From the NCBI GenBank assembly GCA_900299395.1, contig OMJO01000012.1, forward strand, positions 623 to 64,622: a DNA stretch of 64,000 nucleotides. Reading direction: 5' to 3'. The position numbers and the translations under genes are program-made. This stretch comes from a bacterium. GTDB lineage: Bacteria > Patescibacteriota > Saccharimonadia > Saccharimonadales > OMJO01. The notes beneath the pieces were generated by a model. It had not been told where the DNA came from, did not search any database, and was given only the letters and a program-made list of their open reading frames with translations. Below, one piece after another: positions 1,909-49,285 of this stretch. Numbering within the stretch: position 1 is the stretch's first letter; each line of letters begins with the position of its first letter.

Positions 1909-4900
1909 TTATCTCTGAACAATGTGGTAGCTAAATGTGTACGTCTTCGATGCTGTCAGCGCATTGTACGAATTCAGGTCAAAGGTTGTAGTCGTAGACG
2001 TGTAGTAATACTGTGGGAAGTTTGATGAAGCGGGCACCGTATTTGGTGTAATAGCAATGGTTGGTGCCGAAACATACGCAACTGCAAATGTGACGGTTGC
2101 CTGCGCACCTGCTGCCGGTGTTGTACCAGTGTTAATGGTGATCAACCCAGCCGTGTCATTACCATTAATAGTGACTGTACAGCCAGTGCCACAGTTGGCG
2201 TTTAGTGCAACCGTGGTTGTCCCGCTGGCATTCGCAGACAAGATATGTCCAGCAGCTTTAAGTGTACCGTTGAATGTTGCGTCGCTATTAACGGTTAACG
2301 CACCCCCGGCTGCCGCTGAACCAATAGTCACATTAATGGTAGATCCCGCCAAACCGGCATTACCAATGTTGATATTTAGTGTCTTGCCACTGGCAACTGC
2401 GCCAGTACCAATATTGATAGTCTGATTCTGCGTAGACTGACCTATGGTAATCGTGCCCGTGCCTGTCGTGGTGCCAAGCGTCAGGGCGCCGGTGGTTGTA
2501 TTAGCTGAAAGCAAGGCGGTACCAGCAGTGCTTTGTACCACGAAGGCCGTTGATGAGTCTGCCGAGACAACGACCGTATTGTCACTCGCTGCGGTTAATC
2601 CGTTACTTACCAAGTTACCTGCCTCGTCTAATGTCAGGTGAGACGAACCACTGTTAAGGTTTAAAGTTGTGAAGTACACGCTACGGAACTGCGTCGAAAC
2701 ATTACCCAAGTCAACACCAGACAATGCTGTACCCGCACCAGAACAACTTGCATCAGAACATTTTACCGTTCGTAAGTTGGCGCTTGTATTGTCGTAGTAG
2801 CTAATAAATGGCTGCCCGTCACTTGGCAAGACAATTGATGTGTACTGACCTACATCATTGGTTGTGTCGATGCTTGCAGCGGAACCACTCGTACATGTTG
2901 AGTTACTGCACTGGTAAACCTTCAGATCACCATTTGTAAGGTCATAGTAGCTTATGACCGGTTGACCACTTGTGCCAACGACCACCGAAGTATAATAACC
3001 AACAGAACCAGTTGAGTCTAGGGTTGTTTTTGTAGCACTTGTACAGGTAGTGTTACTACACTTCGCTATTCGTAAGTTACCGTTTTGAGCGTCGTAGTAG
3101 CTTATGACTGGCTTGTCATCACTTGGGATTGCCACAGAGTTATACTTTCCAATTATCGAAGATGAGTTGTCGATAGTCGTAGTCGTATTACCGCTAGCAC
3201 AAGTTTTAGTACCACAGCTTACAGCAAGGAGATCGCCATTAGTGGAGTTGTACACCGAGAGGAATGGCAGGCCAGAGCTATCTACTTTAATGGCATGTTC
3301 AAGCCCTGATGCTACCGATAATGTGGTAGTGTTACCACTATTACAAGCCGTATTACCACATTTGATGATATCGATGCCCCCATAGCCATAAGATATGACA
3401 GGTAAACCATCTGAGCCAATAGCTATGTCTTGATAGCCCTTCCCGTGGAGAGAGTCGATCGCTACCGGCGACGAGTTACCACTTGAGCAAGCGGCGTTTC
3501 CACATCGTACGATATACAAGATATCATTATTGTTGTTACCACTGTCTGTTGAGTATACAACGTATGGTTTACCTGTTGGGTCCACTGCAATCGAGCCAGA
3601 CAAGAAGTTAGAAGCTGGCGTCGTCAGGCCAGATGCAATTGTCGTTTTGGTAGAACTGCTACAGGTAGCGTTACTACACTTCGCCACTTTTATAGCGTTA
3701 TTAGTTACATCCGTGTAAACAATTATCGGTAAGCCGTCAGAACCTATTGCAGTTTTAGTATATTGGCCGACGGTGCCCGTGGTATCTATATTAGTAAACG
3801 TGTTTGTCGTACTTGCCTGACTTGGCGCAAAGCCTGGTCGAATAACATTGTTGGCCGTATCAGCAACCAGCAAGGTGGTAGAACCGGCAGCATTCTGAAT
3901 TTGGAAGGCAGTTGTACTCGTTCCCTGCAGATTTAGCACACCTGCGCTTGTGCCAGTATTAGAGTTTGTCATCTGATACTGGAAGCCGTTGATTGAACTT
4001 GTTGAAGTTTCGGCAGAAGTTGGGTTCTTGGCTAAGAAGCTACCACTAAGCCCACCGCCAATGGCATTGACACAGTTTGCCGAAGCCGCCGTAGTACATA
4101 TGGTCCCCGTCTCTGCTGGTAGGGTTAGCGTAAAGTTACTTGCCGTAGAAGTAGGTGCAATGGTTATTGTGCCACCACCAGTGGTACCAAAGGCCAGCTG
4201 AGAACTTGCTGTTCCCGCCTGACCAATAACAACTTTCGAGTTAACAGTATCCACGTTGAGGATCTGCGTACCTGACGCATTTTGTACCTGGAAGGCGGTA
4301 GATGTGTCAGCAGTTGGTGCTACAGTACCATCACCAGTAATACCAGTATCATCAAAGGTGGTAGCAGCTGTTGTACCAATTAAACCTGTCGTGGCCGGAC
4401 TTGTTGCAACCGCAGTTCGATAGATCTTGTAGCTAACGGCACCACTGACTGTACTCCAGGTAATACGTTGATAGTTTGCCGTAGTCAGCGTCGCAGCACC
4501 ATTGGCGCTTGTTGTAGTACCTTGGCTAGATGCAGCCGTGGTAGCACCACTGGCGGTGACTGCTACTACTTTGTATCCCCAGGTAGATGCACCGGTTGTA
4601 CCGACGGTCGTAACTGTCGGTGTGCCTGGTGTTGCAAGGTTTGCAATAGTAAGACCACCCTGCAAGCTACCAGCTACACTCAAATTATTAGCTCGCAGAT
4701 TACCCTGCACCCACGCGTTACCCGCTACGCCAAGATCCGCGGCAGTTTGGATAGACCCGGCAGCATCGAAACCGCCTTGGACGCTAGCTGACCCGCTGAA
4801 AACGGTGTTGCCACTGACCTGCAAGCCACCAAGCTCGGCAGTGCCAGCCTCAAGAGACTGCGTATATGTACCGCCCATGTCATATATCTGCAGCAAGTTT

Positions 4901-7900
4901 GCACTAGCAGATGGGACATAGGCGTAGCGGCCATTAAGGACAATCGCGTACGGAATACTGCCCGTCGTTATTGTCCCGCCACTGAGTAACGTAGGATTTG
5001 CCGGGTTACTGACATCATATATGGTGATTGTATTTGAAGTCGCATTTGCCACATATGCATAGCGACCCTGTACGGTTAGACCTCGTGGGTTCGTTCCGGT
5101 ATTCACCGACCCAACAACGAGTGGCGTCGCAGGATTCGATACATCAATGACCTGCATAGTGCTGGAGGTAAAGTTAGTAACATACGCGTAGCGTCCCTGG
5201 ATGGCAACCCTATACGGTGTAGCTCCAACCGTTACGGTGCCTAACAGCGACGGGCTTGCGGCAGTTGCAATGTCGTAGATTTGCATAGTACTCGTGCCGG
5301 TATTCACAACATATGCATATCGTCCGGCAACATTTAAGCCAATAGGTGAACTTCCCGTACCCGTAGATATAACTCCTACGGCTATTGGGCTAGCCGGGTT
5401 AGAAATGTCGTAGACCTGGAGTGTATTGGAGGTTGTGCTAGACACATATGCGTAACGCCCCTGCACAGCTAATCCACGTGGGGCAGTACCCACCGCAACT
5501 GATCCAGACAATGATGGAGTTGAAGGCTTACTGATATCAAATACCTGTAAGGTGTTTGATGTTTGATTGATGACGTAGGCATATTTATCTGCAACACTCA
5601 CTGCGGTAGGTGTGGTGCCGGTAGAAACACTACCAACTACTGCAGGATTGCTAGGACTACTCACATCTATCACCTGTAGTGTTGCGCTCGTCTGGTTGGT
5701 TACGTACGCATACCTGCCCTGAACTGCTACGGCGTTCGGGAACGACCCAGTCGCAACAGTGGCTGCCGCACTAGACGGGGTCGTACCACTAACATACAAC
5801 TGACCTGTTGGCGTACCATTGCCCCCAATCACCAACTGCAATGCAGAATTCGAGTTGTTTGCGCTTGTGTATGCCGAGTTACTGCTCGGTGGTGATGTGG
5901 ACCCAGCCGTTATACTCCCCACATCTGTAAAAGAGTTTGTCTGCACAGTAGTCAGGTAGACTTCTGTACCAGTTGCTGTACTTCTATAGACTTTATACGC
6001 AACAGCGCCAGAAACTGCACTCCAACTAACATCAATTGTCTTTAAGGTAGTATCTGTCGCCACTGATGTCTCCGTAGACGCCGCACTCTCTCCACCCGTC
6101 CCATCTATGGCCGTGATTTTGTAGTAATATGTCGTGCTTGCAGTAAGGTTGCCCCCGGCAGTAATAGATGCACCGTTACCCGTATAACCTGTATCGTTAA
6201 ATGTCGTACCTGTTGTCGTTCCAACCAAACCGATAGTACTACCACCGACTGTTCTATATATCTTGTAGTAAAGTACCGATCCCGAGGAAGGTGTAAAGGC
6301 TGTCCACGAAAGTGCATTATAGTTAGTACTGCTGAGCGTCGCATTACCTGTTGCGGTTGTGCCCGCAGCAGATGCGGCAGAGTTACCAATTGTGCCTACC
6401 GCCTCAATGATATAGCTGTAGCTCGTTGCACCTGTCGTGCCTGTGGGTGTTACGGTTGGCGTTGCGTTCTGACTTGGTTTAGTGGCAGTTGGCGTAGGGG
6501 TCGTTACCGCGCTAAGTGCAGAGAATAAGTTTATCCTATTATTGGTACTGTCAACATTCATCAGTGAAGCACTGCTGGAGTTTTGGATTGCAAACTGACT
6601 TGTTGAGTTTGTGCTGTTGCGGAATAGGTTTGCATACGTAGACTGAAGACCATAGCCAGTTACACTGGTCCTAGTCCCAATGTTTACGGCGTTGTTTGCT
6701 GAGTCAACACTTAGTACGTAGTTGTTAGTGGTCGTATCAATAACCGTAAATGCCGTCGATGAAGGAGACTGAACAGATACGTTGTTACTGGAATCCGAAC
6801 TAAGGGCGTTACTGGTAAATTTGCCCGAGGAATCAAGGTACAAATGCATCCCCGATTGCCCACTATTTATTTGAACTACATTGATATTAGCAAATGGATA
6901 GTTCCCGCCAAGGCTTACCCCGCCACTCCAGCTAGAGGTTGAGGCGGCATAACAGGTGTAATCAACACAGTTAAGGACGCCCATCCAGTCATTACTTCCG
7001 GTACTTGTACCAGCATAAAAGGCAATAGATGGGAAGCCAAGGTTATTAATAATAGGTGTGCCCTGTTGACCACCATTCGATTTTGCAGATAAAAACTCTG
7101 TTTGGGTGTTTGCCAACGAACCAGTCGTTGCAGGGTCACAAGATTGACTTCCACAATGATAGATACCTACACCGCCAGCACCAGTATTATCCTTATACAC
7201 AAATACTGGCAACTGGTCACCACCAATCATACCATCTAGATTACTAGTTGCCACCTGGCCAACTGGACCGGCAATTTTAGGCGTGTTATAGGTAGCACAA
7301 CTCGCAACCTTACACTTCACAATAAAGAGTTGATTGTTACTAGCAACCGCGCCAATAATCGGCAGTCCATCACCACCAATCATTATTACTGGTTTGATCA
7401 GGTCGTACGTGCCACCCAACGTTGCATAGTACGAGATGAGTGTATTGGTGTGTGAAGTACAGTTAGCATCATTACATTTTGAGATGAACAGGCCGTCTTT
7501 CCCGTTAGCGCCGTTTGTGTTGTTCTGAGCCGAAACCAAAATTGGATATTGATCTGATGGAGTAATCGCCACCGAAATCTGTCCAGTTAGTGAATGATTA
7601 TTGAGCTCCGGCTCACTCGATGTCCAGGGCTGCACGCTGGTAGATGTCCTGCAAGTGTCGGCATTATTGCCTGTGTTGTTGGTGCAGCGAATCAGTTGAG
7701 GTCTGTTGTTAGTACTTGAGATATTGATAATGAGCGGCATCTGGTTAGGCCCCATAATCATATCCATATTACCGCCTGGAGTAGTAGTCGAGGCCAAAAC
7801 AGTAAACGAGTTACCCGCTGTACAGTCGTACGAGCCACAGTTCCATGCAACAAGTTTGTTCGGGGTCACACTGTTGTCTTTGAACACTATCACCGGCAAA

Positions 7901-10900
7901 CCGTTATTGGTCCCACCCGTCGCGGTTACAACACCAGTCGTGCTCACTTGAGTATAGGTGGGGATGTTTGAGGTACTCAACGTATCTATTTGTGATCCTG
8001 TAGTACTACAGTCCGTCTTATTGCACTTAGTGACCACCAACCAGTTACTGGGTCCGTTTGTCGCTACAGCAACCACCACCGGTAAGCCATCGTTAGGGAA
8101 CACCTGGCTAAAGGCCCCGTTATTCATACTAAGTGTAGGGAATTTTTGATATTGGAAGTAACTTGCACCTTTTGTGGGCTGCACAACAACAGGACTAGCA
8201 GCAGCCTGAAGCACTCCGTTGTAACCATACTGAGAAGAGTTATCGATCGTATTAAGCTGTATGAGATTAGCGCCAGAAGCACTTTGTAGTATAAACGCCC
8301 CCGCGTTGTCAGTTTGCGCGCGAAAGGCAACATCACCCATGACCTGCATCCCATTGCGTATTGAAACTCCCTGCAAAAAGTCAGACTGTCCTGTAACACT
8401 GAAGCGGCCTACGATATTAGTATTGCCAGCTGTCAGACTACCGCCTAGCCCATTATCATTCATGTTCTGACCAGACACTCCCACGAGATCAAGAGAAGCG
8501 CCCACCTTAATTCGTGCCGTAGACGTATATTGAGTTGTACTGACTGCACTGCTTGTGTAACCGCCAAGGACATACATGTAGCCGTTAGCAGCTGCATAAC
8601 CAAAGTTTGAAACACTGTTTGTGAGTGCGTTGGTGGAAGTAGTAAAACTGGCCGATCCAACGCTACCATTTGAATTGAATGGCGCATAGTAAACAGTGTT
8701 ATTACCCGATGTAGCAGAGCTACCGCCACCAAAAACGTACAGATTGCCACTTAGTGCAGCAAGACCATGGTATGCCCTCCCAGCTGGAAGAGAAACCGCG
8801 TTGGTTGACCAACTACCTATTGTGCCATCATCATTAACTGTTGCGTAATAGATGCTTGTTTGTGCAGCGCCTGATGTATTCAGTCCACCTACGTAGTAAA
8901 TACGACCATTGGCATATATTGCCCTTCCGCCAACCAAACCAGCACCCACAGGTAGCGTGTTCGAGGAAGCGGTGAACGAGCCGATGGTGCCATCTGGGTA
9001 GATTTTAGCGTATTGGACAACTGTAGTTCCGGTAGAAGCTGCGGGGGTCTGGGTTGCACAACTGTTACTAGCACAGGTGCTCCCCCCAAGAATATAAATG
9101 TAGCCCTTTGCAGTTATAACTGAACCTCCTGCAACCGCGGTGTTAAGCCGGTATGAAGTGGTGTACCAAGATGTTATATCACCGTTGCTTCCAAGTTTAC
9201 CAATCTTTGTCGAGTAGCTTGGTGTATACGGGCCAGTGCCGCTAGTATCATCAAAGCCACCGCTAATATATACATAGTTTCCGAATGATGCAGCTCCAGG
9301 ATAATATGCTCTACTACCATATAATGACAAGCTAGCTGAAGTGTTCGACCAGGTACCAATTGTCCCGTTTGCCTGTAGCGTAGCAAATGATACTATCGAA
9401 TCGTCCGACCCACTTACTCCCCCGACAGAATATATGTATGGGCCACTTACAAATGTGCTCGAACCATAGCGTGTCTGCAATAATGCCTGTGTAGTTGCCC
9501 AGGCCTGGGTCTCCGCATATCCTGCGCCGTTCACGGTAAGCACTGCGTTCGACGTGTCTAGATTAAATAACTGAGCACCGCTGGAATTCTGTATTTGGAA
9601 TCCATTTGCACCATTTGCCGGCTGTATCAAAACACCACTGGTTCCGGCCTTAATCGTGGTTTGCGATGTCCCGATAGATGAACCGATATTAACCGTTGTG
9701 CTCGAACTAGCGGTGGTGTTGTTGCCGATGTTGATTGTTTGCGCAACTGCGCCTGTCGTGTTACCGATTTGCACAGTGGAAGCGATCCCGGTATTGCCTA
9801 AACTCACAGCTGCACCACTGGTATTTACAAGCAAGTAGTTGTTGCCGGCTGCATTTTGTATCTGGAAGGCGGTGGTTGAATCAGTACTATTTTTTGCTAA
9901 TACGGCGCCGGTAGCACTAACACCAAGAACGCTGGTGCCGCTGCTGTTTTGTACTTCAAAGACGTTGGCAGTACTCTGATTTGTCTGTGCTTTGGCGATA
10001 AGTGTTGCGACGGTATTGAGGTTCGAGGTGTCTGTTGTTTGGAAGAAACCCGAGGCATTAGAGGCACTCTGTCCAAGTACACCATAGCCACCACCACCAA
10101 CACCCTTTACACCACCACCGACACCAGCATACTGCGTACCAATCACTCCGTACGAACTACTGTTCGAGGTTGTACCAACAATAGCGTTACCACTCAAGTT
10201 AGTTGCGTTCGTCGTACCGCCCTGTGTATCTACGTTGAATATAGTAGTCCCGCCCGCATTGTTTATATTAAACGCTGCTGAGGAATCTGCAGAATTTTGC
10301 GATGTTACGGCACCCGTCGCCCCTATTCGGAACATGTTTGAAGCACTGGAGTTTTGTACCTGGAAGATGTCTGCCGTTTGTCCAGAGGCACCACGTATCA
10401 AGCCGCCCACATACCCAATGTTTGCACTCTGGATTGCGAAGTTACCGTTTGTCTGGATGCCATTGCCGTTTTGGATGTAATTACCTGAACCACTCGATGC
10501 CGAACAACCACTAAGACTACACACGACATTACCATTTATTCTGAGCGATCCCGAGTTGTCCAAGTTCACATCCCCGTTAACATCCAGGGCATAACCAGTT
10601 GGGTATTGGTTTATTCCAACCCGCTTATTGACAGTATCTACAACTAGAACGTGACTTGTACCTGCAGAATCATTAACGCTAAAGGCACTTGTTGAGTCTG
10701 ATGAATTTTGCAAAGTAAGAGCGCCTGTTGCGGAAACTCCAAAGAGATTTGCACCCGCACTGTTCCGTAGATTCAACAGGTCTGCCGTCTGCCCGACTGC
10801 ACCCTTTATGACTCCACCTACATACGTTGCATTTGCAGACTGTATCGAGAAGTTGGCGTTCGACTGAACACCAGTTGTGTTCTGTATGAAATTATTTGCA

Positions 10901-12588
10901 CTACTGCTTGTTCCAACACAACCGTCAATGGTACAAATTACGGTACCACCTATCCTAAGCGCCGAACTTGCCTCAATATTGGCATCACCGTTGATGTCTA
11001 ACTTGTAGTTAGGGACTATCCCTATACCTATTCGATTGTTCACAGTATCCGCAGTGAACAAATTTGATGTTCCCGCAGCATCTTGAATCTGGAAGGCTGT
11101 TGTAGAGTTGGAAGAGTTTTGTGCCAAAACTGAACCCGTTGCACCCACAGCTAAAACGTTTGTCCCATTGGATACTTGTAGGTTCAAAAGGTTAGCGGTC
11201 TGCCCGACAGCACCACGTATGAGACCAGCAACGTATCCGGCGTTGGCACTCTGAATCGCAAAGTTGGCGTTCGACTGAACACCAGTTGAGTTCTGTATGT
11301 AAAACCCGCTGGACCCGCTGGCTGCACAACCAGAAGCAGTACAAATAACAGCCCCGCCGATACGCAAAGCACTAGTACCGACTATGTTCACATCGCCATT
11401 TACGTCCAGTTTGTACGATGGGTTCGAATACCCAATACCAATGCGCTGATTAGTGGTATCAACATTGAGCACCGACGTCCCTGATGCGTTTTGAACTTGG
11501 AATCCAGTCGTGGAGTTAGTCCCAGTTCGGAAGGCACTTACCCCGTTGCCACCGACCGTAAATAGCGCTGAGCCATTGTAGTCCTGTGCTTCAATCAAAC
11601 TACCTGTTTGTGCAAATTCACCTTGGATAACAATACCCTTATTGGTTGAAGTGTTCGTTGCTACCAGCAGTTGGGCAGCGTTATCCACTGTAGTTGGTAC
11701 ATTTATGGCAAGTTTATTGTCTGAGCTTGTGTTATTAATACCGATGTTGCCAGTGGCCGTGATGGTCATTCGAGCAGTGTTGTTGGTCAAGAAGTTGAGG
11801 CTATTGGCGTCTGTTGTGCCAAGGTTTGCTGCGGTTGCAAAGGCGTTGCCGCCTTGTAAAAAGGCATTGCCACTTCCGCTGGCACACGATGCAAAACTAA
11901 GAGTTCCGGCACCATCTGTCGTTAGACACTGGTTGGCACTCCCTGTGTTTGAAGGCAGCGTGAAGGTACTTGACCCGCCGTTGGCTCCTTGTAGAATTGT
12001 GCCGCCAATCTTCAAAACACTTGTCAATGTCATGCCAGTAAACTGTGGTGATGCAGTTTTTGACAAATCTTGTGGCAGCGCTAAAGCGTTGGCGCCAATC
12101 AGATTCAGAACATCCTGAGTTGAAAGTGTACTTCCTGTCGTGGCGACCGTCTGATAGCCCTCACCGTTATAAAATCGCAATTCTCGAGTGGCAGAATCGA
12201 CATACAGCTGACCTAAGATGGCGGTTGTGGGCTGGCCGGTTGGGTTGATTACCAACCCTTGGTTTGTCTCGAGCACCCCATTGATAACTACTTTATCGGT
12301 ATTGTCGACCTTTAGTGGCGTGGCCACATCGGACAAGCTTCCAAGATCGACGTCTTGTGATTTAGTTGTAGCACCACTCTTTCCAGAGGTAGACTTCTTT
12401 CCTACTACGCTGCGAAGCAGCAATAAACCGATGATAAGGCTGAGAATAAAGGCAACTACAATAATAACCCACTTCCAGGGGATACGCCTCCGAGGTGGTT
12501 TAACAGGGGCGGGCTGGGTGGTGGAAGTTTGTACCGTTGGTGGTGCGTCTAGCGCAACAAATTCGTTGCGCCACTGCTGTTCTTCCAT
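1909..12588 (-). CDS. giant (3,559 aa) membrane-anchored modular surface protein; candidate adhesin
   Basis: Uninterrupted 10,680-nt ORF. Short Pro/Arg-rich N-terminus and a single TM helix WKWVIIVVAFILSLIIGLLLL (aa 38-58). The rest is Thr/Ser/Gly/Asn/Ala-rich and built from the repeat arrays listed separately, plus three FN3-like modules (YKIYR / YKVYR / YKIYR strands). Confidence 0.85.
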   Translation of the reverse strand: MEEQQWRNEFVALDAPPTVQTSTTQPAPVKPPRRRIPWKWVIIVVAFILSLIIGLLLLRSVVGKKSTSGKSGATTKSQDVDLGSLSDVATPLKVDNTDKVVINGVLETNQGLVINPTGQPTTAILGQLYVDSATRELRFYNGEGYQTVATTGSTLSTQDVLNLIGANALALPQDLSKTASPQFTGMTLTSVLKIGGTILQGANGGSSTFTLPSNTGSANQCLTTDGAGTLSFASCASGSGNAFLQGGNAFATAANLGTTDANSLNFLTNNTARMTITATGNIGINNTSSDNKLAINVPTTVDNAAQLLVATNTSTNKGIVIQGEFAQTGSLIEAQDYNGSALFTVGGNGVSAFRTGTNSTTGFQVQNASGTSVLNVDTTNQRIGIGYSNPSYKLDVNGDVNIVGTSALRIGGAVICTASGCAASGSSGFYIQNSTGVQSNANFAIQSANAGYVAGLIRGAVGQTANLLNLQVSNGTNVLAVGATGSVLAQNSSNSTTAFQIQDAAGTSNLFTADTVNNRIGIGIVPNYKLDINGDANIEASSALRIGGTVICTIDGCVGTSSSANNFIQNTTGVQSNANFSIQSANATYVGGVIKGAVGQTADLLNLRNSAGANLFGVSATGALTLQNSSDSTSAFSVNDSAGTSHVLVVDTVNKRVGINQYPTGYALDVNGDVNLDNSGSLRINGNVVCSLSGCSASSGSGNYIQNGNGIQTNGNFAIQSANIGYVGGLIRGASGQTADIFQVQNSSASNMFRIGATGAVTSQNSADSSAAFNINNAGGTTIFNVDTQGGTTNATNLSGNAIVGTTSNSSSYGVIGTQYAGVGGGVKGVGGGGYGVLGQSASNASGFFQTTDTSNLNTVATLIAKAQTNQSTANVFEVQNSSGTSVLGVSATGAVLAKNSTDSTTAFQIQNAAGNNYLLVNTSGAAVSLGNTGIASTVQIGNTTGAVAQTINIGNNTTASSSTTVNIGSSIGTSQTTIKAGTSGVLIQPANGANGFQIQNSSGAQLFNLDTSNAVLTVNGAGYAETQAWATTQALLQTRYGSSTFVSGPYIYSVGGVSGSDDSIVSFATLQANGTIGTWSNTSASLSLYGSRAYYPGAASFGNYVYISGGFDDTSGTGPYTPSYSTKIGKLGSNGDITSWYTTSYRLNTAVAGGSVITAKGYIYILGGSTCASNSCATQTPAASTGTTVVQYAKIYPDGTIGSFTASSNTLPVGAGLVGGRAIYANGRIYYVGGLNTSGAAQTSIYYATVNDDGTIGSWSTNAVSLPAGRAYHGLAALSGNLYVFGGGSSATSGNNTVYYAPFNSNGSVGSASFTTSTNALTNSVSNFGYAAANGYMYVLGGYTSSAVSTTQYTSTARIKVGASLDLVGVSGQNMNDNGLGGSLTAGNTNIVGRFSVTGQSDFLQGVSIRNGMQVMGDVAFRAQTDNAGAFILQSASGANLIQLNTIDNSSQYGYNGVLQAAASPVVVQPTKGASYFQYQKFPTLSMNNGAFSQVFPNDGLPVVVAVATNGPSNWLVVTKCNKTDCSTTGSQIDTLSTSNIPTYTQVSTTGVVTATGGTNNGLPVIVFKDNSVTPNKLVAWNCGSYDCTAGNSFTVLASTTTPGGNMDMIMGPNQMPLIINISSTNNRPQLIRCTNNTGNNADTCRTSTSVQPWTSSEPELNNHSLTGQISVAITPSDQYPILVSAQNNTNGANGKDGLFISKCNDANCTSHTNTLISYYATLGGTYDLIKPVIMIGGDGLPIIGAVASNNQLFIVKCKVASCATYNTPKIAGPVGQVATSNLDGMIGGDQLPVFVYKDNTGAGGVGIYHCGSQSCDPATTGSLANTQTEFLSAKSNGGQQGTPIINNLGFPSIAFYAGTSTGSNDWMGVLNCVDYTCYAASTSSWSGGVSLGGNYPFANINVVQINSGQSGMHLYLDSSGKFTSNALSSDSSNNVSVQSPSSTAFTVIDTTTNNYVLSVDSANNAVNIGTRTSVTGYGLQSTYANLFRNSTNSTSQFAIQNSSSASLMNVDSTNNRINLFSALSAVTTPTPTATKPSQNATPTVTPTGTTGATSYSYIIEAVGTIGNSAASAAGTTATGNATLSSTNYNALSWTAFTPSSGSVLYYKIYRTVGGSTIGLVGTTTGTTFNDTGYTGNGASITAGGNLTASTTYYYKITAIDGTGGESAASTETSVATDTTLKTIDVSWSAVSGAVAYKVYRSTATGTEVYLTTVQTNSFTDVGSITAGSTSPPSSNSAYTSANNSNSALQLVIGGNGTPTGQLYVSGTTPSSAAATVATGSFPNAVAVQGRYAYVTNQTSATLQVIDVSSPSNPAVVGSVSTGTTPTAVSVADKYAYVINQTSNTLQVFDISKPSTPSLSGSVAVGTAPRGLAVQGRYAYVSSTTSNTLQVYDISNPASPIAVGVISTGTGSSPIGLNVAGRYAYVVNTGTSTMQIYDIATAASPSLLGTVTVGATPYRVAIQGRYAYVTNFTSSTMQVIDVSNPATPLVVGSVNTGTNPRGLTVQGRYAYVANATSNTITIYDVSNPANPTLLSGGTITTGSIPYAIVLNGRYAYVPSASANLLQIYDMGGTYTQSLEAGTAELGGLQVSGNTVFSGSASVQGGFDAAGSIQTAADLGVAGNAWVQGNLRANNLSVAGSLQGGLTIANLATPGTPTVTTVGTTGASTWGYKVVAVTASGATTAASSQGTTTSANGAATLTTANYQRITWSTVSGAVSYKIYRTAVATSPATTGLIGTTAATTFDDTGITGDGTVAPTADTSTAFQVQNASGTQILNVDTVNSKVVIGQAGTASSQLAFGTTGGGTITIAPTSTASNFTLTLPAETGTICTTAASANCVNAIGGGLSGSFLAKNPTSAETSTSSINGFQYQMTNSNTGTSAGVLNLQGTSTTAFQIQNAAGSTTLLVADTANNVIRPGFAPSQASTTNTFTNIDTTGTVGQYTKTAIGSDGLPIIVYTDVTNNAIKVAKCSNATCSSSTKTTIASGLTTPASNFLSGSIAVDPTGKPYVVYSTDSGNNNNDILYIVRCGNAACSSGNSSPVAIDSLHGKGYQDIAIGSDGLPVISYGYGGIDIIKCGNTACNSGNTTTLSVASGLEHAIKVDSSGLPFLSVYNSTNGDLLAVSCGTKTCASGNTTTTIDNSSSIIGKYNSVAIPSDDKPVISYYDAQNGNLRIAKCSNTTCTSATKTTLDSTGSVGYYTSVVVGTSGQPVISYYDLTNGDLKVYQCSNSTCTSGSAASIDTTNDVGQYTSIVLPSDGQPFISYYDNTSANLRTVKCSDASCSGAGTALSGVDLGNVSTQFRSVYFTTLNLNSGSSHLTLDEAGNLVSNGLTAASDNTVVVSADSSTAFVVQSTAGTALLSANTTTGALTLGTTTGTGTITIGQSTQNQTINIGTGAVASGKTLNINIGNAGLAGSTINVTIGSAAAGGALTVNSDATFNGTLKAAGHILSANASGTTTVALNANCGTGCTVTINGNDTAGLITINTGTTPAAGAQATVTFAVAYVSAPTIAITPNTVPASSNFPQYYYTSTTTTFDLNSYNALTASKTYTFSYHIVQR
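2721..3786 (-). repeat. coding repeat array B: 7 x ~50-aa units, each with a C-x4-C pair (predicted 7-bladed propeller)
   Basis: aa ~2935-3290. The units contain VAKCSNATC, IVRCGNAAC, IIKCGNTAC, AVSCGTKTC, IAKCSNTTC, VYQCSNSTC and TVKCSDASC. Each is preceded by DGLP/SGQP-[IV]ISYYD-like strands. Confidence 0.6.
4881..5736 (-). repeat. coding repeat array: 7 x ~41-aa LVIVD-type repeats (beta-propeller)
   Basis: aa ~2285-2570. Seven units of the form G[RK]YAYV.N..S.TLQV[IFY]D[IV]S.P..P..VG.V.TG..P..[LV]. This matches the LVIVD repeat signature. Confidence 0.65.
6936..8106 (-). repeat. coding repeat array A: 7 more divergent units with paired Cys (C-x4-10-C)
   Basis: aa ~1495-1885. The units contain VVTKCNKTDC, VAWNCGSYDC, LIRCTNNTGNNADTC, FISKCNDANC, FIVKCKVASC, IYHCGSQSC and VLNCVDYTC. 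They are interleaved with GLPV/GLPI strands. Confidence 0.55.
8511..9471 (-). repeat. coding repeat array: 6 Kelch-like blades
   Basis: aa ~1040-1360. Six units carry the double-Gly strand (YIYSVGG, YVYISGG, YIYILGG, RIYYVGG, NLYVFGG, YMYVLGG), each followed by a ...DGTIGSW...-type strand. Confidence 0.6.
10190..11511 (-). repeat. coding tandem repeat: ~3.2 copies of a ~137-aa (~411-nt) unit
   Basis: aa ~360-800. Unit: TTxFQ[VI]Q[ND]AxGTSxLxVDTxNxR[IV]GIG...YKLD[VI]NGD[VA]N...LRIGGxVICTxxGC...[FY]IQNxxGVQSNANF[AS]IQSAN..YV[AG]G[LV]I[RK]GAVGQTA[ND]LLNL. Copies start near aa 360, 496, 633 and 769 (the last is partial). Confidence 0.65.
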
Positions 12589-12700: not shown

Positions 12701-13546
12701 TTACAGAAGTAGTATGACGTAGGCCAACGCGAGCCCCATGGCAGTGATTACGACAGACAATAATGAGGCTCGCAATAAACTATTCACGATGCTATCCCTC
12801 GATAATGGATTACGCCCAAGTGAGATGAAACTACCCTTGATAGAGCCGTTCAAAATCAGGCCCGCAAGGGCAAATGTACTGACCGCGATAACACTAGATG
12901 CTACTAATTTGAGGGGGCTCGTTGGTTTACCTGTTAGCTTTTGCCCTACTGTAGCGAGAATATTACTTTGGGCGGAGGCCTTTTTGTCACTTCGGTCATT
13001 GAGCAGTAACTTGGCGGTTATCCTTCCCACAACAACGCTCTTTTTAGACCCATCAGGCATAGATACTTCAACTTTCTTGGTATTTGTTGAGCTTTTAGTG
13101 AATTTTTCCCCTGCTGCTGCAACTACTTTTTTTGTTGAAGCCTCATCACTTATTTTGGTGGCAATTCCCGATAATGGGGAGATAACAAGTTGGTCACCTG
13201 GACTGATGTCACCATTTAAATCAGTCACCAGTAGTGAGGTATCACCACTGACAGCTACACGAATAATACTACCAGCAGGTTGAAGATCAATGAGCGCATC
13301 TTTGGCGGCAGCCGAAACTCCTATAAGGGATCCCTCGTTTTCGTACGTTGTCTTCTCAACAGTATCACTACTTCCTTTCGCCAAACTCACAATTGCCCCC
13401 GTGGGCATAGCAATATTTGTTTTAAAGCCCTGCGTTACTGCACCAGCAAACACAATCCCGTCAGCGGAAACAACTGCGAGAAACACAATAACAGATAGCA
13501 CGACAGATACTGTTCGTTTCAACGCCCTACTCTTGTACCTCCCCAT
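12701..13546 (-). CDS. membrane protein, unknown function (N-terminal anchor, extracytoplasmic domain, C-terminal helical hairpin)
   Basis: 281 aa. N-terminal TM segment VSVVLSVIVFLAVV and two C-terminal hydrophobic helices joined by SLGRNPLSRDS. I recognised no catalytic motif. Confidence 0.55.
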   Translation of the reverse strand: MGRYKSRALKRTVSVVLSVIVFLAVVSADGIVFAGAVTQGFKTNIAMPTGAIVSLAKGSSDTVEKTTYENEGSLIGVSAAAKDALIDLQPAGSIIRVAVSGDTSLLVTDLNGDISPGDQLVISPLSGIATKISDEASTKKVVAAAGEKFTKSSTNTKKVEVSMPDGSKKSVVVGRITAKLLLNDRSDKKASAQSNILATVGQKLTGKPTSPLKLVASSVIAVSTFALAGLILNGSIKGSFISLGRNPLSRDSIVNSLLRASLLSVVITAMGLALAYVILLL

Positions 13547-29901: not shown

Positions 29902-31323
29902 CTACCCCACTACCCTATACGCAATCAGACCAAGCACAATTAACACAATAGCTGACCAAAACCCCCACCTGACAGCACTCGCATAGAGTTCCCCCGTTTG
30001 ATGAGGTTTTGTTTGCGCTGCCAGTTTTTCTGCCAATTCCCTGTTCGTCTGTTGTAGCGAAGGCTGCAGCTGCTCGGCATACTTCTGATACGTACTTGGC
30101 ATAATGGCACCAATTGGCACTGGGCTAGAGGTAACTGAATCACTATCTTTGATCTCGTGTCTCTGTTCAAATCGTTTTTCAATCGGTTCACCGTGCTCCG
30201 CTGCCTCAACAACACGTTCTAGCACCTGCTCACTTGGACGCTCCTTTTCGACCGTAGTTTTTACTGTTTGCGTATCTTGTTCCTGTGCTGGCACAGCTTT
30301 CTCTACTTGTTTTTCAATACCTGCGGCGGAGTTCTCGGAAGTACTGCGAGTTTCTCGCGTAACCGTATCAATCTGACGGTCCGCAACAGGAGTTCGTTCT
30401 GCGATTTTCTCAGATTGAAGCACTGCTGGGGTATCAGGGATGGCGCGTTTAACTTCTTTTTTCAGTTCCTCAACGGTACGCTCCTGTCTTTTTTTGATCT
30501 GGTGCTTCAGTTTACGCGTCTGATCTTCGCGCTTTTCATCGGCGCGTCTCTGTACATCACGCTCGCGAATACGCTCTTCTGCAAGCCGTGCAGGAGTAGG
30601 CGTTAACTCGCTCACTTCTCGGTGTTGCATATCTTCATAGTGCAAGATAGGCGTAACCATCTCAGTAGCTGATACGGGAAATTGTCTATTATCGACAGAT
30701 CCAAGTGGAGGCAAATCTTCTGTGGGACCTTCCCAGCGGGGAGGTATAATCGGAGCGACTTCTTGCTGTTCATGTGTCACCTGAAGAAAAGGTAATGGCT
30801 CTTCATCGTCGTGAGAAATAATAGTCTCCCCGTGATAACCCCCATCACTCTGGTCATCATGAGACGTTTCAGAAGTGCTATTTTGTTCATGCTGGGTTTC
30901 GTACACAAGGTCAGACTCTCTACTGTCAGGAGGTTCAGGCGCAACCGACTCTACTTCTCGATGCTCGGGCATCCCCGTAGAATCTTCTAGGCCCCGTTCA
31001 GAATTTTCATCAAAACCCAGAAACTGATCAAGTGAAGCAGTTTCTACCGGCAATTCGGTATCATTGCCCTGCTGTTCGATGAGTTCGGCACTTGCAATGC
31101 TACCGAACAACTTCCCCCATAGTCGACGGAAGCGACCTGTAGACGGATCTTTTTCTAGAGTAGTATCACCCTCTTTTTTACGGGCTTCATCTTTCTCTAG
31201 TTTCTCTGTTCCAAGAAGCTCGTGCAGACGATCTTGAAATGAAACCAAAAAACCCTGCTTTCGCTCGATAGCTGGTGAACTCTTTTCCTCGTTATTGGTA
31301 ACGGGTGGTCGACTTTCTTCCAT
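29902..31323 (-). CDS. tail-anchored, highly charged low-complexity protein
   Basis: 473 aa, E/R/K/Q/T-rich. A single C-terminal TM segment WGFWSAIVLIVLGLIAY. Starts 24 nt after the infB stop on the same strand. Confidence 0.55.
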   Translation of the reverse strand: MEESRPPVTNNEEKSSPAIERKQGFLVSFQDRLHELLGTEKLEKDEARKKEGDTTLEKDPSTGRFRRLWGKLFGSIASAELIEQQGNDTELPVETASLDQFLGFDENSERGLEDSTGMPEHREVESVAPEPPDSRESDLVYETQHEQNSTSETSHDDQSDGGYHGETIISHDDEEPLPFLQVTHEQQEVAPIIPPRWEGPTEDLPPLGSVDNRQFPVSATEMVTPILHYEDMQHREVSELTPTPARLAEERIRERDVQRRADEKREDQTRKLKHQIKKRQERTVEELKKEVKRAIPDTPAVLQSEKIAERTPVADRQIDTVTRETRSTSENSAAGIEKQVEKAVPAQEQDTQTVKTTVEKERPSEQVLERVVEAAEHGEPIEKRFEQRHEIKDSDSVTSSPVPIGAIMPSTYQKYAEQLQPSLQQTNRELAEKLAAQTKPHQTGELYASAVRWGFWSAIVLIVLGLIAYRVVG

Positions 31324-37522: not shown

Positions 37523-37619
37523 ACTGCTTATTCTTACTCTTACAGCGTAGCCTCTCGTAAATAGGCTGTCAAACCAAAAGAGCCCTGTCATAACACAAAA
37601 CTGGGCTATACTGAGTAGC

Positions 37620-37981
37620 ATGCAGAAACGTACGATGGACATTGGTAGCGTGGATGAATTTATTGCTGGTTATCCCCCAGCCGTGCAGGATATCTTGCAA
37701 AAAGTCCGCACTACTATCAGAAAATCCGCCCCTGACGCACAAGAGCGAATTTCGTACGGTATACCCACCTACACGCAAGGACGTAACCTAGTCCACTTCT
37801 CTGGTTATGAAAAACACCTGGGCTTCTACCCAGGTGCCCAAGCTATCGCTGACTTTGCCCCTGAACTGAAAAATACGAGACATCAAAGGGTACCGTACGC
37901 TTCCCACTAGATAAGCCGATCCCCTACGATCTCATCGATAAAATTACTCGTTACCGAGTCCAAGCCGAGCAAAATAGATAA
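37620..37981 (+). pseudogene. DUF1801/YdhG-like gene interrupted by a 1-nt frameshift in an A5 run
   Basis: Frame 1 ends ...FAPELKNTRHQRVPYASH* at 37910. Shifting by one A at 37869-37873 gives ...LKKYETSKGTVRFPLDKPIPYDLIDKITRYRVQAEQNR* (stop 37979-37981), the expected family C-terminus. Confidence 0.7.
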
Positions 37982-38573: not shown

Positions 38574-38884
38574 TTTGGCACTTTTGCCGAGTTGACCTGC
38601 TAACGAGCAAAGCTCATTACTCCGTCAACTCTCTTGGGAAAATGCGGTGTCGACTACATTCGTCTTTTTCAGTCATCGTACATTAGTACGCTCCCTTCAA
38701 AAACTCACTGTCTCCTTGCACTTTCCTCAAGCAAAATTCCCAAATCGGGTTTATTGCCTGATTGATGTCCATGTTTCGCACGGATTTGAGATGTTAACAA
38801 ACGGTGTGTAACTATTCGTCACACCAATAACTAGTCAATGCACTTCTTCTCACAAGCCCTAAATGTTCTTGTGAGAAGACGTAA

Positions 38885-41970
<3,086 letters not shown>

Positions 41971-49216: not shown

Positions 49217-49285
49217 CTTCGAAAGCTTGTTATTGGAGGGTGTTTCATGATTGAATAAGCATTAGCAGTAAGAGGGCGTGTGGCA

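What the first reader, a model, noticed from the sequence alone, without database searches (positions are those of the whole stretch)
1909..12588. A 10.7-kb gene encodes a 3,559-aa membrane-anchored protein built from four different beta-propeller arrays
One uninterrupted ORF takes up about 17% of this otherwise housekeeping window. The predicted topology is a short cytoplasmic Pro/Arg stub, one TM helix (aa 38-58), and about 3,500 extracellular residues. Reading outward from the membrane I see 137-aa tandem units, a 6-blade Kelch-like array, a 7-unit Cys-pair array, two FN3-like modules, a 7-unit LVIVD array, a third FN3-like module, a second 7-unit Cys-pair array, and a lectin-like tip. In a reduced genome with little metabolism, investing this much DNA in a serial binding-domain fibre suggests a host- or partner-attachment structure. 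That function is inferred and no motif demonstrates it.
Basis: partly seen in the sequence, partly recalled or inferred. Interest (0 to 1): 0.8.

Follow-up and report, generated by a model that had tools for sequence, protein, structure and literature searches.

The report
Giant modular surface fibre of Saccharibacteria
A tiny parasitic-type bacterium (Saccharibacteria) spends 10.7 kb on one membrane-anchored protein: a string of four sugar-binding-type propellers ending in a tip domain also found on phage tail fibres, so it is most likely a fibre for grabbing another cell.

Summary
Window 1909-12588 (-) is one uninterrupted 3,559-aa ORF, and the identical protein occurs in two other assemblies. 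It has no near-identical DNA repeats that could cause assembly collapse. The genome is a Saccharibacterium (IleRS is 72-73% identical to Saccharimonadales MAGs).

- **Confirmed modules:** N-in signal-anchor helix, about 4 tandem 137-aa units, a 6-blade Kelch array, a 7-unit LVIVD array, and two 7-unit C-x4-C arrays.
- **C-x4-C array:** one array models confidently as a 7-bladed propeller (pLDDT 90.5). Its closest folds are the Photorhabdus PLL/PHL lectins. No Pfam or NCBIfam model covers it.
- **Weakly supported:** the "FN3" modules and the "H-type lectin" tip score below family thresholds.

New findings:
- The C-terminal 124-aa tip defines a large unannotated family. There are 5,368 50%-identity clusters, and in the best 150 the domain is always C-terminal. 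These proteins usually have an N-terminal TM helix and run 110-2,832 aa.
- The tip also ends tail-fibre-module proteins in phage contigs.
- The stalk is built from shuffled cassettes.
- The gene fills a variable slot between rplU and parAB that is empty in most relatives.

Best reading: a host- or partner-attachment fibre. This is inferred, not demonstrated. It is a new variant of a known kind.

The parts
1909..12588 (-). Whole gene: 3,559-aa giant surface protein, stop codon included
   Evidence: The identical protein is on two other assemblies.
12478..12588 (-). aa 1-37: cytoplasmic Pro/Arg-rich stub
   Evidence: Sequence. Basic residues RRR sit directly before the helix, in line with the positive-inside rule (inference).
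12415..12477 (-). aa 38-58: single TM helix, read as a signal anchor
   Evidence: The Kyte-Doolittle window at aa 35-64 averages 3.18. It is the only hydrophobic segment in the protein.
11734..12414 (-). aa 59-285: membrane-proximal region conserved in the family
   Evidence: 27-38% identity to the N-termini of other tip-family proteins such as P0192, P0143 and P0210, and of L026. No Pfam or PDB match.
10090..11733 (-). aa 286-833: tandem 137-aa units, 3 full and 1 partial, each with one C-x4-C pair and the junction motif
   Evidence: DNA family D1 has 411-nt spacing. Fold unknown: no Pfam, PHROG or PDB hit.
9469..10089 (-). aa 834-1040: degenerate stalk, Gly-rich with two more junction motifs
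8389..9468 (-). aa 1041-1400: six-blade Kelch propeller
   Evidence: Kelch_6 at 34.7 bits and Kelch_1 at 30.5 bits, both above cut-off. SAKe6 and KLHL22 PDB matches. Six Y-x-Y-x-x-G-G blades are visible in the sequence.
6934..8118 (-). aa 1491-1885: Cys-pair propeller 1, seven units
   Evidence: Seven Cys pairs. Matches the HMM built from alignment A1 at domain E=1.6e-25. 25-37% identical to array 2.
5854..6483 (-). aa 2036-2245: two FN3-like beta-sandwich modules after a Pro/Thr linker
   Evidence: fn3 E=0.012 at 16.2 bits, below cut-off, and GH85_C at 25.6 bits. PDB 3mpc 'Fn3-like' at E=0.022. Internal repeat with aa 2643-2745 at 45-50% identity.
4834..5853 (-). aa 2246-2585: seven-unit LVIVD propeller
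   Evidence: PF08309 at 109.8 bits against a 20.2 cut-off. Seven RYAYV units with a 43-aa period. YVTN and 6-phosphogluconolactonase-like hits.
4639..4833 (-). aa 2586-2650: bactofilin-like beta-helix spacer
   Evidence: PF04519 at 31.4 bits against a 27.9 cut-off on the segment.
4339..4638 (-). aa 2651-2750: third FN3-like module
   Evidence: 45-50% identical to aa 2043-2150. The whole FN3-LVIVD-helix-FN3 block is 49% identical to P0142.
2719..3813 (-). aa 2926-3290: Cys-pair propeller 2, seven blades
   Evidence: AF2 model me9e6a3cb58f6: pLDDT 90.5, pTM 0.89, 28 strands. Foldseek best matches are the PLL/PHL lectins at E about 1e-12 and TM 0.67-0.74.
2284..2718 (-). aa 3291-3435: junction motif plus a Gly/Thr-rich 'TITIGQST..INIG' repeat stalk
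   Evidence: Homologous repeats in P0128, P0129, P0132, P0134 and L070. Modelled at low confidence.
1912..2283 (-). aa 3436-3559: conserved C-terminal tip domain, a beta-sandwich. Invariant residues: H3448, G3476, D3478, G3481, G3488, G3494, F3501, P3515.
   Evidence: pLDDT 83-92 for this part of the model. 5,368 family clusters, with the domain C-terminal in all 150 listed. Phage homologues. Weak H_lectin signal. Invariant columns.
12701..13546 (-). 281-aa membrane protein directly upstream; possible partner, association only
   Evidence: No Pfam hit. Homologues accompany large surface-protein ORFs in 6 related loci. Promoter-like site at 13594-13567 with no terminator-like site before the giant gene (weak).

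Best explanation
The gene encodes a cell-surface fibre of a Saccharibacteria (TM7) bacterium.

**Proposed layout.**
- An uncleaved N-terminal signal-anchor helix holds the protein in the cytoplasmic membrane.
- About 3,500 Thr/Ser/Gly/Asn-rich residues project outward.
- From the membrane outward these are: a membrane-proximal stalk (a conserved N-terminal region, 137-aa units and beta-helical or FN3-like spacers), four non-catalytic beta-propellers, and a distal C-terminal beta-sandwich tip.
- The propellers are a 6-blade Kelch, a 7-blade LVIVD and two 7-blade disulfide-stapled lectin-like arrays.
- The tip is of the kind that ends phage tail-fibre-module proteins.

**Proposed mechanism (inferred).** The tip and the propellers bind surface glycans or proteins of another cell, most plausibly the bacterial host of this epibiont. 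They act multivalently, so the fibre works as an attachment and host-recognition device.

**Evolutionary setting.** The protein is the largest seen member of a big, unannotated Patescibacteria family. That family has a fixed anchor and a fixed tip, with ligand-binding cassettes swapped between them. The gene sits in a strain-variable slot between rplU and parAB.

**Shown:** ORF integrity, domain identities and folds, family membership, phage homology of the tip, and locus variability.

**Inferred:** topology, disulfides, binding, ligand and role in attachment.
For: - **Integrity:**
- **Taxon:** IleRS is 72-73% identical to Saccharimonadales MAGs.
- **Anchor:** one hydrophobic helix after a basic cluster. 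109 of 135 complete family members also have an N-terminal TM helix.
- **Binding-type, non-enzymatic domains:** LVIVD and Kelch. The Cys-pair array models as a 7-blade propeller nearest to the PLL/PHL lectins. No catalytic Pfam or NCBIfam family was found, and no Asp-box.
- **Tip family:** 5,368 clusters at E<=1e-3. In the best 150 the domain is always at the extreme C-terminus.
- **Tip in phages:** 38-39% identity to the C-termini of proteins in phage structural modules. L084's 1,683-aa protein lies directly after a tail-fibre J protein. L083's 873-aa protein lies between the major head and tape-measure genes. The best BFVD phage match has rmsd 2.1 A over 106 columns at E=2.7e-9.
- **Tip fold signal:** H_lectin is the most recurrent weak Pfam hit, and HPA and discoidin II appear among the weak Foldseek hits.
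- **Specificity-determinant behaviour:** the rplU-parAB slot is 200 bp or less in 18 of 33 relatives and 4.7-8.4 kb in 5. It is 11.9 kb here.
- **Mosaic relatives:** related large proteins share only the anchor, the tip and scattered cassettes.
- **Literature:** envelope proteins with lectin-like and FN3 domains are essential for epibiotic growth of Southlakia epibionticum (PMC10633639; PMC11665869).
Against: - There is no direct evidence of expression, surface exposure, oligomeric state or any ligand.
- The tip has no significant match to any solved structure (best E=0.029) or PDB sequence. 'Receptor-binding' is therefore inferred from its position in phage proteins.
- A C-terminal phage-fibre domain could instead be a folding or trimerisation module.
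- The fold resemblance of the propeller to the PLL lectins comes at 12-15% identity, and the binding residues were not examined.
- In cultured Saccharibacteria, host binding is experimentally attributed mainly to type IV pili (PMC9894109, PMC12206443).
- The slot is empty in most relatives, so the protein is not universally required.
Confidence: 0.6

Rival explanations
1. It is a structural envelope component rather than an adhesin: an S-layer-like or glycocalyx scaffold, or a spacer. On this reading it is a heavily glycosylated coat protein that shapes or protects the cell surface, or sets the distance to the host.
For: The composition is extremely Thr/Ser/Gly/Asn-rich: 49-67% T+S+G+N+A in every large module, with few charged residues. 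By general knowledge, LVIVD repeats are typical of archaeal and bacterial surface-layer-associated proteins. The protein has a long stalk and membrane anchoring.
Against: A core envelope component should be conserved. Here the slot is empty in 18 of 33 relatives, and the architecture is mosaic. The giant is a singleton at 90% identity with no close orthologue in GTDB representatives or JGI metagenomes. The phage-type distal tip and lectin-like propellers fit ligand binding better.
Confidence: 0.15
2. It is a surface binder for something other than a host cell: environmental polysaccharide or particles, biofilm matrix, self-aggregation, or a decoy or receptor in interactions with phages.
For: The same domain evidence applies as for the adhesin reading, and nothing identifies the ligand. 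The tip is shared with phages whose contigs have 53-65% GC against 47.6% here, so those phages may have different hosts. Another glycan-binding surface protein (Big_7+CBM96) is encoded in the window.
Against: By general knowledge and PMC12206443, all cultivated Saccharibacteria are obligate episymbionts. Strain-level variability and cassette shuffling are classic for partner-specific recognition.
Confidence: 0.15
3. It is an enzyme-bearing fibre: one or more propellers act as a glycoside hydrolase or sialidase-like catalyst that degrades host surface polysaccharide.
For: After the lectins, the next Foldseek matches of the Cys-pair propeller are sialidases and GH families, at E 1e-10 to 1e-8. 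Homologues carry precomputed BNR_4 (PF15892) hits.
Against: BNR_4 scores only 17.7 bits against a 27.3 cut-off on this protein. There is no Asp-box motif anywhere. TM-scores to sialidases are about 0.5, against 0.67-0.74 for the lectins. No catalytic family appears in Pfam or NCBIfam.
Confidence: 0.05
4. It is an assembly or annotation artefact: a chimeric or collapsed repeat region, or a pseudogene read as one ORF.
For: The sequence is metagenome-derived and repeat-rich. The two other assemblies may come from overlapping read sets, since their contig ends are nearly the same.
Against: The 10.7-kb frame is uninterrupted. The protein is identical in three assemblies. Internal DNA repeats are at most 86% identical over at most 125 nt. 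GC is uniform. The domain order is coherent, with complete 6-, 7-, 7- and 7-blade arrays. Large genes sit at the same position in relatives.
Confidence: 0.03

Closest known systems
Giant modular or fibrillar bacterial adhesins, e.g. Marinomonas primoryensis MpIBP (PMC5550230), Salmonella SiiE (PMC6272769) and Apilactobacillus Giant1-5 (PMC12863079)
   Same: A very large single polypeptide. It has a repetitive extender region followed by a cluster of ligand-binding modules towards the distal end. It is the largest gene of a small genome and varies between strains.
   Different: It is anchored by an N-terminal transmembrane helix rather than by T1SS retention, LPXTG or an autotransporter. The body is made of four beta-propellers rather than Ig-like or BIg repeats. 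Its distal tip is a phage-fibre-type domain.
Phage tail fibres and receptor-binding proteins
   Same: The C-terminal 124-aa domain is homologous at 38-39% identity to the C-terminus of proteins in phage tail and structural modules. The stalk contains beta-helical, Gly/Thr-rich repeats. The distal-end position matches that of receptor-binding tips.
   Different: It is a chromosomal gene between rplU and parAB with no phage genes nearby. It is membrane-anchored. Only the tip is shared with the phage proteins. No match was found in GenBank phage records.
PLL/PHL seven-bladed propeller lectins of Photorhabdus (PDB 6rg2, 5mxg and others)
   Same: They are the best structural match of the modelled Cys-pair array: 7 four-stranded blades, TM 0.67-0.74 and E about 1e-12.
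   Different: Identity is only 12-15%. The blade signature is different (DG-P-ISY-D...LK-C-x4-C). The array is embedded twice in a 3,559-aa chain. Sugar-binding residues were not tested.
Essential envelope 'adhesins' of Southlakia epibionticum: SEML1_0890, 0891 and 0315 (PMC10633639)
   Same: They come from the same phylum. They are envelope proteins with lectin-like and FN3 domains, proposed to target host glycans.
   Different: They carry different named domains (VCBS, dockerin). Whether they carry the anchor and tip of this family could not be checked, because the sequences were not at hand.
Short members of the same tip family, e.g. P0130, P0131 and P0133 (276-319 aa)
   Same: They share the plan of a cytoplasmic stub, one TM helix, a beta-helical stalk (bactofilin-like in P0131) and the C-terminal tip.
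   Different: They have no propellers or tandem units. The window protein is more than 10 times longer and is the longest member seen (the longest of the 150 listed is 2,832 aa).

Membership tests
LVIVD repeat (Pfam PF08309) | Profile match above the gathering score; tandem ~42-aa units | tested here: met
   109.8 bits against a 20.2 cut-off. Seven units with a 43-aa period.
Kelch repeat propeller (PF01344 / PF13964) | Profile match above the gathering score; 5-7 blades of about 50 aa with a GG doublet | tested here: met
   On aa 1041-1480, Kelch_6 scores 34.7 bits against a 25.3 cut-off and Kelch_1 scores 30.5 against 20.1. In the whole-protein scan both were below cut-off. The match to the 6-blade SAKe6 design spans aa 1051-1359. 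Six GG blades are visible in the sequence.
Fibronectin type III (PF00041) | Profile match above the gathering score; A-B-C-C'-E-F-G strand order | tested here: inconclusive
   E=0.012 at 16.2 bits against a cut-off of 25. PDB 'Fn3-like' 3mpc at E=0.022. The repeat unit begins with an F-G-like hairpin, so the order may be permuted. No structure was modelled.
H-type lectin (PF09458) | Profile match above the gathering score | tested here: not met
   The window tip scores 13 bits (E=0.12) against a cut-off of 24. The best homologue reaches E=2.7e-4. 6 of 10 members matched at E<=10 and 4 of 30 at E<=0.01.
H-type lectin (PF09458) | Structural similarity to HPA or discoidin | tested here: inconclusive
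   HPA and discoidin II appear only at E=0.2-0.6, with target-normalised TM 0.25-0.46. A BFVD 'H-type lectin domain' phage protein matches at probability 0.98 and E=0.067.
Phage tail-fibre C-terminal domain (unnamed; shared with L083 and L084 proteins and BFVD A0A6J5T5J5) | Significant sequence and structure similarity, at the C-terminus of a protein in a phage tail or structural module | tested here: met
   BLASTP 1.5e-12 and 3.3e-9 at 38-39% identity. Foldseek 2.7e-9 with rmsd 2.1 A. The neighbours are tail fibre J, major head and tape-measure genes.
Anchor-stalk-tip family of Patescibacteria (unnamed; defined here) | C-terminal tip domain at the extreme C-terminus plus an N-terminal TM helix | tested here: met
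   The tip profile finds 5,368 clusters, and the domain is terminal in the best 150. 109 of 135 complete members have a TM helix. The N-terminal region is shared at 27-38% identity. Named members come from Patescibacteria or Saccharimonadia.
PLL-family propeller lectins | Seven-bladed fold | tested here: met
   28 strands, TM 0.67-0.74.
PLL-family propeller lectins | Sequence homology and conserved sugar-binding pockets | not tested
   Identity in the structural alignment is only 12-15%. There is no sequence-level hit to the PLL lectins in the PDB search. Pocket residues were not compared.
Sialidase / BNR (PF15892 BNR_4, Asp-box) | Profile above cut-off; S-x-D-x-G-x-T-W Asp-boxes | tested here: not met
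   BNR_4 scores 17.7 bits against a 27.3 cut-off. No Asp-box is present.
DUF1936 (PF09151) | Profile above the gathering score | tested here: not met
   23 bits against a cut-off of 25, covering 14 residues around one C-x4-C. Many homologues carry the precomputed hit.
Bactofilin (PF04519) | Profile above the gathering score | tested here: met
   31.4 bits against a 27.9 cut-off on aa 2588-2649. This is read as a shared beta-helix fold in an extracellular stalk, not as a cytoskeletal function (inference).

The most novel reading that the evidence does not exclude
Patescibacteria carry a large, so far unnamed family of membrane-anchored 'cellular tail fibres'. These have a fixed N-terminal anchor, a fixed phage-type receptor-binding tip, and exchangeable lectin-propeller cassettes recombined at a conserved ~30-aa junction motif. 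On this reading the family sets the host range of the episymbiont much as receptor-binding proteins set phage host range. This 3,559-aa protein would be its most elaborate member.
Probability: 0.3. Interest if true: 0.8.

Novelty: new variant of a known kind. Interest (0 to 1): 0.55.

Why it matters
How ultrasmall Patescibacteria recognise and hold on to their hosts is largely open. Experiments so far point to type IV pili and a few poorly described 'adhesins'.

This locus gives a concrete, testable candidate class:
- thousands of unannotated proteins share one anchor and one phage-like tip;
- their length runs from about 110 to more than 3,500 residues;
- the ligand-binding cassettes between anchor and tip are shuffled;
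- the gene sits in a strain-variable chromosomal slot.

If the tip or the propellers bind host cell-wall glycans, tip and cassette typing could predict host range from metagenomes.

The Cys-stapled 7-blade propeller is also a widespread domain without a curated family model. It occurs in Legionella, Nitrospirae, Actinobacteria and others.

Tried and rejected
- A whole-protein homology search timed out.
- The genome contigs and metagenome-contig scans with aa 1000-2650 found no close relative. Domain order could therefore not be compared with a true orthologue. Only syntenic, mosaic relatives were available.
- Word-index searches with the C-terminal 269 aa and with the tip alone found few homologues. 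The exhaustive HMMER scan was needed to see the family.
- The tip profile against PDB sequences found nothing.
- Foldseek of the tip model against the PDB found nothing significant.
- tblastn of the window tip and of a phage tip against GenBank phage records found no match.
- PHROGs on the stalk, spacers, FN3-like modules, Cys-pair array 1 and C-terminal 269 aa found nothing useful.
- The 137-aa units and the N-terminal region have no Pfam or PDB hit.
- The sialidase reading was rejected: no Asp-box, and BNR_4 is below its cut-off.
- A prophage origin for the locus was rejected because the flanks are housekeeping genes.
- Recent horizontal transfer by composition is not indicated.
- Literature searches for LVIVD or DUF1936 together with Saccharibacteria returned nothing.
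Full report

The minus-strand ORF 1909..12588 starts with ATG and runs 3,559 codons without a stop. It occupies 16.7% of the window. An exact look-up finds the identical 3,559-aa product on two further assemblies, L001 (15,102 bp) and L002 (15,068 bp), with the same neighbours. The cluster record shows a third source contig of 68,297 bp.

Inside the gene the only DNA repeats are diverged. The 411-nt-spaced family is 64-78% identical over 125 nt, and the others are 44 nt or shorter at 86% identity or less. Repeat collapse or a chimeric join is therefore unlikely. Gene GC (48.1%) equals window GC (47.6%).

**2. Organism and setting**

The window carries an rRNA operon, RNase P RNA, parB, parA, rplU, ileS, class II RNR, nrdR, ftsZ, ftsA, priA, infB, rpsA, gyrA and gyrB.

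IleRS retrieves 80 loci from GTDB species representatives. Most are titled Saccharibacteria or Saccharimonadales MAGs, and the rest 'Patescibacteria group bacterium', 'uncultured bacterium' or 'bacterium'. The best identity is 72-73%. The source is therefore a Saccharibacterium (TM7, Patescibacteria) with no close species representative. A small, host-dependent genome follows from the taxon, not from anything tested here.

**3. Anatomy**

The protein is 13.7% Thr, 12.0% Ser, 11.6% Gly, 10.5% Ala and 8.7% Asn, with few charged residues. It has 42 Cys, 36 of them in 18 C-x4-C pairs.

The only hydrophobic segment is aa 35-64. It follows PPRRRIPWK, which indicates an N-in/C-out signal anchor by the positive-inside rule (inference).

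From the membrane outward:

| Residues | Module | Evidence |
|---|---|---|
| 59-285 | Region conserved in relatives | |
| 286-833 | Three full and one partial 137-aa units, 50-68% identical | |
| 834-1040 | Degenerate Gly-rich stalk | |
| 1041-1400 | Six-blade Kelch array | Kelch_6 34.7 bits and Kelch_1 30.5 bits, above cut-offs when the segment is scanned alone; designed 6-blade Kelch SAKe6 matched over aa 1051-1359 |
| 1491-1885 | Seven Cys-pair units | |
| 2036-2245 | Two FN3-like modules after a Pro/Thr linker | |
| 2246-2585 | Seven LVIVD units | PF08309 at 109.8 bits; 43-aa period |
| 2586-2650 | Bactofilin-like beta-helix | 31.4 bits against a 27.9 cut-off |
| 2651-2750 | Third FN3-like module | |
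| 2926-3290 | Second array of seven Cys-pair units | |
| 3291-3435 | Gly/Thr-rich repeat stalk | |
| 3436-3559 | 124-aa C-terminal tip domain | |

A ~30-aa motif, S-T-T-A-F-Q-[IV]-Q-N-x-x-G...L-x-V-D-T-x-N, recurs about 11 times. It sits in the 137-aa units and stalk and ahead of the Kelch, Cys-pair 1, FN3-like, Cys-pair 2 and tip modules. Its coding DNA is the only repeat conserved across the whole gene (family D2).

**4. The Cys-pair arrays**

No Pfam or NCBIfam model reaches threshold on them. DUF1936 scores 23 bits against 25, and BNR_4 scores 17.7 against 27.3.

Even so, a search with aa 2901-3559 found 932 homologues, all through the array. They come from Gammaproteobacteria including Legionella, Nitrospirae, Gemmatimonadetes, Actinobacteria, Dehalococcoidales and Patescibacteria. 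Many are ~740-aa proteins with about 14 repeats.

With a 22-sequence alignment (A1), AlphaFold2 gives pLDDT 90.5 and pTM 0.89, with 28 strands, i.e. seven four-stranded blades.

Foldseek against the PDB puts the Photorhabdus PLL/PHL seven-bladed lectins first, at E about 1e-12, TM 0.67-0.74 and 12-15% identity. Sialidases and glycoside hydrolases follow at TM about 0.5-0.65. There is no Asp-box anywhere in the protein.

Array 1 matches the HMM built from A1 at 1.6e-25.

I read these arrays as disulfide-stapled, lectin-type propellers. The fold is shown. The disulfides and sugar binding are inferred.

**5. The weakly supported labels**

- *FN3-like modules.* fn3 reaches only E=0.012 (16.2 bits against 25), and a PDB 'Fn3-like' protein reaches E=0.022. 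The repeat unit starts with an F-G-like hairpin followed by A-B-C-like strands, so the order may be permuted. 'FN3-like' is plausible but unproven.
- *Tip.* The tip has no Pfam hit above threshold. H_lectin scores E=0.12 on the window sequence. Among homologues it is the most recurrent weak hit: 6 of 10 members at E<=10, 4 of 30 at E<=0.01, and a best E of 2.7e-4.
- *Tip model.* The model is confident for the tip itself (pLDDT 83-92, an eight-strand beta-sandwich) but poor upstream. Against the PDB nothing is significant. The best hit is a phage tailspike at E=0.029, with pyocin fibres, HPA and discoidin II at E=0.1-0.6. A tip profile against PDB sequences finds nothing.

**6. What the tip really is**

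An exhaustive HMMER scan of 1.84 billion representatives with a six-sequence tip profile finds 5,368 clusters at E<=1e-3 and 1,815 at E<=1e-10. In all 150 listed, the domain ends at the last residue or the one before it. Their lengths run from 110 to 2,832 aa, with a mode near 300-350 aa.

Of the 135 listed proteins with a start Met, 109 have an N-terminal TM segment. Short members such as P0130, P0131 and P0133 consist of a cytoplasmic stub, a TM helix, a beta-helical stalk and the tip. The few named members are 'hypothetical protein' from Patescibacteria or Saccharimonadia.

The domain also occurs in phages.
- In BFVD, a 604-aa uncultured Caudovirales protein matches at E=2.7e-9, rmsd 2.1 A and 39% identity.
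- In IMG/VR, four contigs encode it.
- In L084 it ends a 1,683-aa protein encoded directly after a 'central tail fibre J / tail fibre' protein.
- In L083 it ends an 873-aa protein between the major head and tape-measure genes.
- Only the tip is shared with the giant, at 38-39% identity.
- These phage contigs are 53-65% GC.
- No GenBank phage record matches.

**7. A shuffled family in a variable slot**

Long family members share three things with the giant: the N-terminal ~290 residues (27-38% identity), the tip (36-71%), and scattered cassettes.
- One or two Cys-pair propellers occur in P0242, P0164, P0191, P0228, P0255 and P0262.
- A whole FN3-LVIVD-helix-FN3 block is 49% identical in P0142.
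- 137-aa-type units also recur.

In the Saccharimonadales loci the backbone RNR-ileS-rplU-[slot]-parA-parB is conserved. Among the 33 loci where both rplU and parA are visible, the gap sizes are as follows:

| Gap between rplU and parA | Loci |
|---|---|
| 200 bp or less | 18 |
| 0.2-1.4 kb | 9 |
| 2.1 kb | 1 |
| 4.7-8.4 kb | 5 |

In the window the gap is 11.9 kb.

About 20 loci carry a Thr-rich ORF of more than 1,000 aa, nearly all with an N-terminal TM segment, downstream of ileS. Architectures differ, and none of them has the Cys-pair arrays.

The closest in plan is L026 (2,823 aa). It shares the N-terminal region at 31%, the LVIVD array at 35% and the tip at 35%.

A 281-aa membrane protein without a Pfam hit lies upstream of the giant (12701-13546). 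Homologues accompany such genes in six loci.

The giant itself is a singleton at 90% identity. It has no close relative in GTDB representatives or JGI metagenome contigs.

**8. Mechanism**

The best-supported reading is a membrane-anchored fibre that presents several non-catalytic, lectin-type propellers and a phage-type distal tip to bind another cell's surface. In a Saccharibacterium that cell is most plausibly its bacterial host.

The shown and inferred steps are those listed under the best explanation. In brief, gene integrity, module identities, one propeller fold, tip family membership, phage homology and locus variability are shown. Topology, disulfides, oligomeric state, ligand and biological role are inferred.

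The literature gives context. Tn-seq in Southlakia epibionticum found envelope proteins with lectin-like VCBS, dockerin and FN3 domains to be essential, and proposed that they target host glycans (PMC10633639; PMC11665869). Host binding has been shown experimentally for type IV pili (PMC9894109, PMC12206443).

Rivals are an envelope or coat scaffold, binding to non-host ligands, an enzymatic propeller, and an assembly artefact. They are weighed in the rival section, and none fits the variability plus phage-type tip as well.

**9. Novelty and verdict**

Giant modular surface adhesins are a known kind, and Saccharibacterial 'adhesins' are anticipated in the literature. So this is not categorically new.

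Four things appear to be undescribed in the searched literature:
- the anchor-stalk-tip family as such;
- the tip's homology with phage fibre ends;
- the cassette shuffling at a conserved junction motif;
- the uncurated Cys-stapled propeller.

I rate it a new variant of a known kind, with interest 0.55. The more ambitious reading is that these are cellular tail fibres that set episymbiont host range. I give that about 0.3 probability.

Noticed in passing
window 12701-13546 (-): A 281-aa predicted membrane protein (N-terminal hydrophobic segment and hydrophobic segments near the C-terminus) with no Pfam hit lies directly upstream of the giant gene. Homologues at 25-43% identity sit beside large surface-protein ORFs in six related Saccharibacteria loci (L019, L025, L026, L029, L037, L039). 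A promoter-like site lies at 13594-13567, and no terminator-like site precedes the giant gene, so the two may be co-transcribed.
   Followed up: partly
window gene, aa 358, 494, 631, 768, 903, 994, 1418, 1990, 2761, 2891, 3342 (e.g. DNA 4277-4310, 9851-9884): A ~30-aa junction motif, 'STTAFQ[IV]QNxxG...LxVDTxN', recurs about 11 times, in the 137-aa units and ahead of the Kelch, Cys-pair, FN3-like and tip modules. Its coding DNA is the only repeat conserved along the whole gene, at up to 85% over 34 nt. It could be a structural linker or a recombination site for cassette exchange.
   Followed up: partly
window 5854-6483 and 4339-4638 (aa 2036-2245, 2651-2750): The FN3-like units begin with an F-G-like hairpin (YxYxVxAV..G.S..S). 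A-B-C-like strands follow (LxW..V.GA..YxIYR). The strand order therefore appears circularly permuted relative to Pfam fn3. No structure was modelled.
   Followed up: partly
P0001-P0120 (homologues of aa 2926-3290): The Cys-pair (C-x4-C) propeller repeat is widespread outside Patescibacteria, in Legionella quateirensis, other Gammaproteobacteria, Nitrospirae, Gemmatimonadetes and Actinobacteria. It often forms ~740-aa proteins with about 14 repeats. Only fragments are covered by Pfam DUF1936 and BNR_4.
   Followed up: partly
L083 5676-8297; L084 3339-8390; L085; L086 (IMG/VR contigs): Phage contigs of 53-65% GC encode proteins that end in the same tip domain. In L084 the gene lies directly after a tail-fibre J-like gene. 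Their hosts are unknown, and no GenBank phage record matches.
   Followed up: partly
window 36005-37642 (-): A 545-aa protein with Big_7 (bacterial Ig) and CBM96 carbohydrate-binding domains lies next to the rRNA operon. It is probably another surface glycan binder.
   Followed up: no
window 38880-41973 (-): The 23S rRNA match spans 3,094 nt for a 2,925-position model, so it contains about 170 nt of insertions. No intron family was reported at gathering thresholds.
   Followed up: no
window 29902-31323 (-), 49280-50848 (+), 51434-54292 (-): Three sizeable ORFs of 473, 522 and 952 aa have no Pfam family at E<=1e-5.
   Followed up: no
L003-L082, region between rplU and parA: The rplU-parAB junction is a variable slot across Saccharimonadales. 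It is empty (about 75-200 bp) in 18 of 33 loci. In others it is filled by one or two large TM-anchored Thr-rich proteins of differing architecture.
   Followed up: yes
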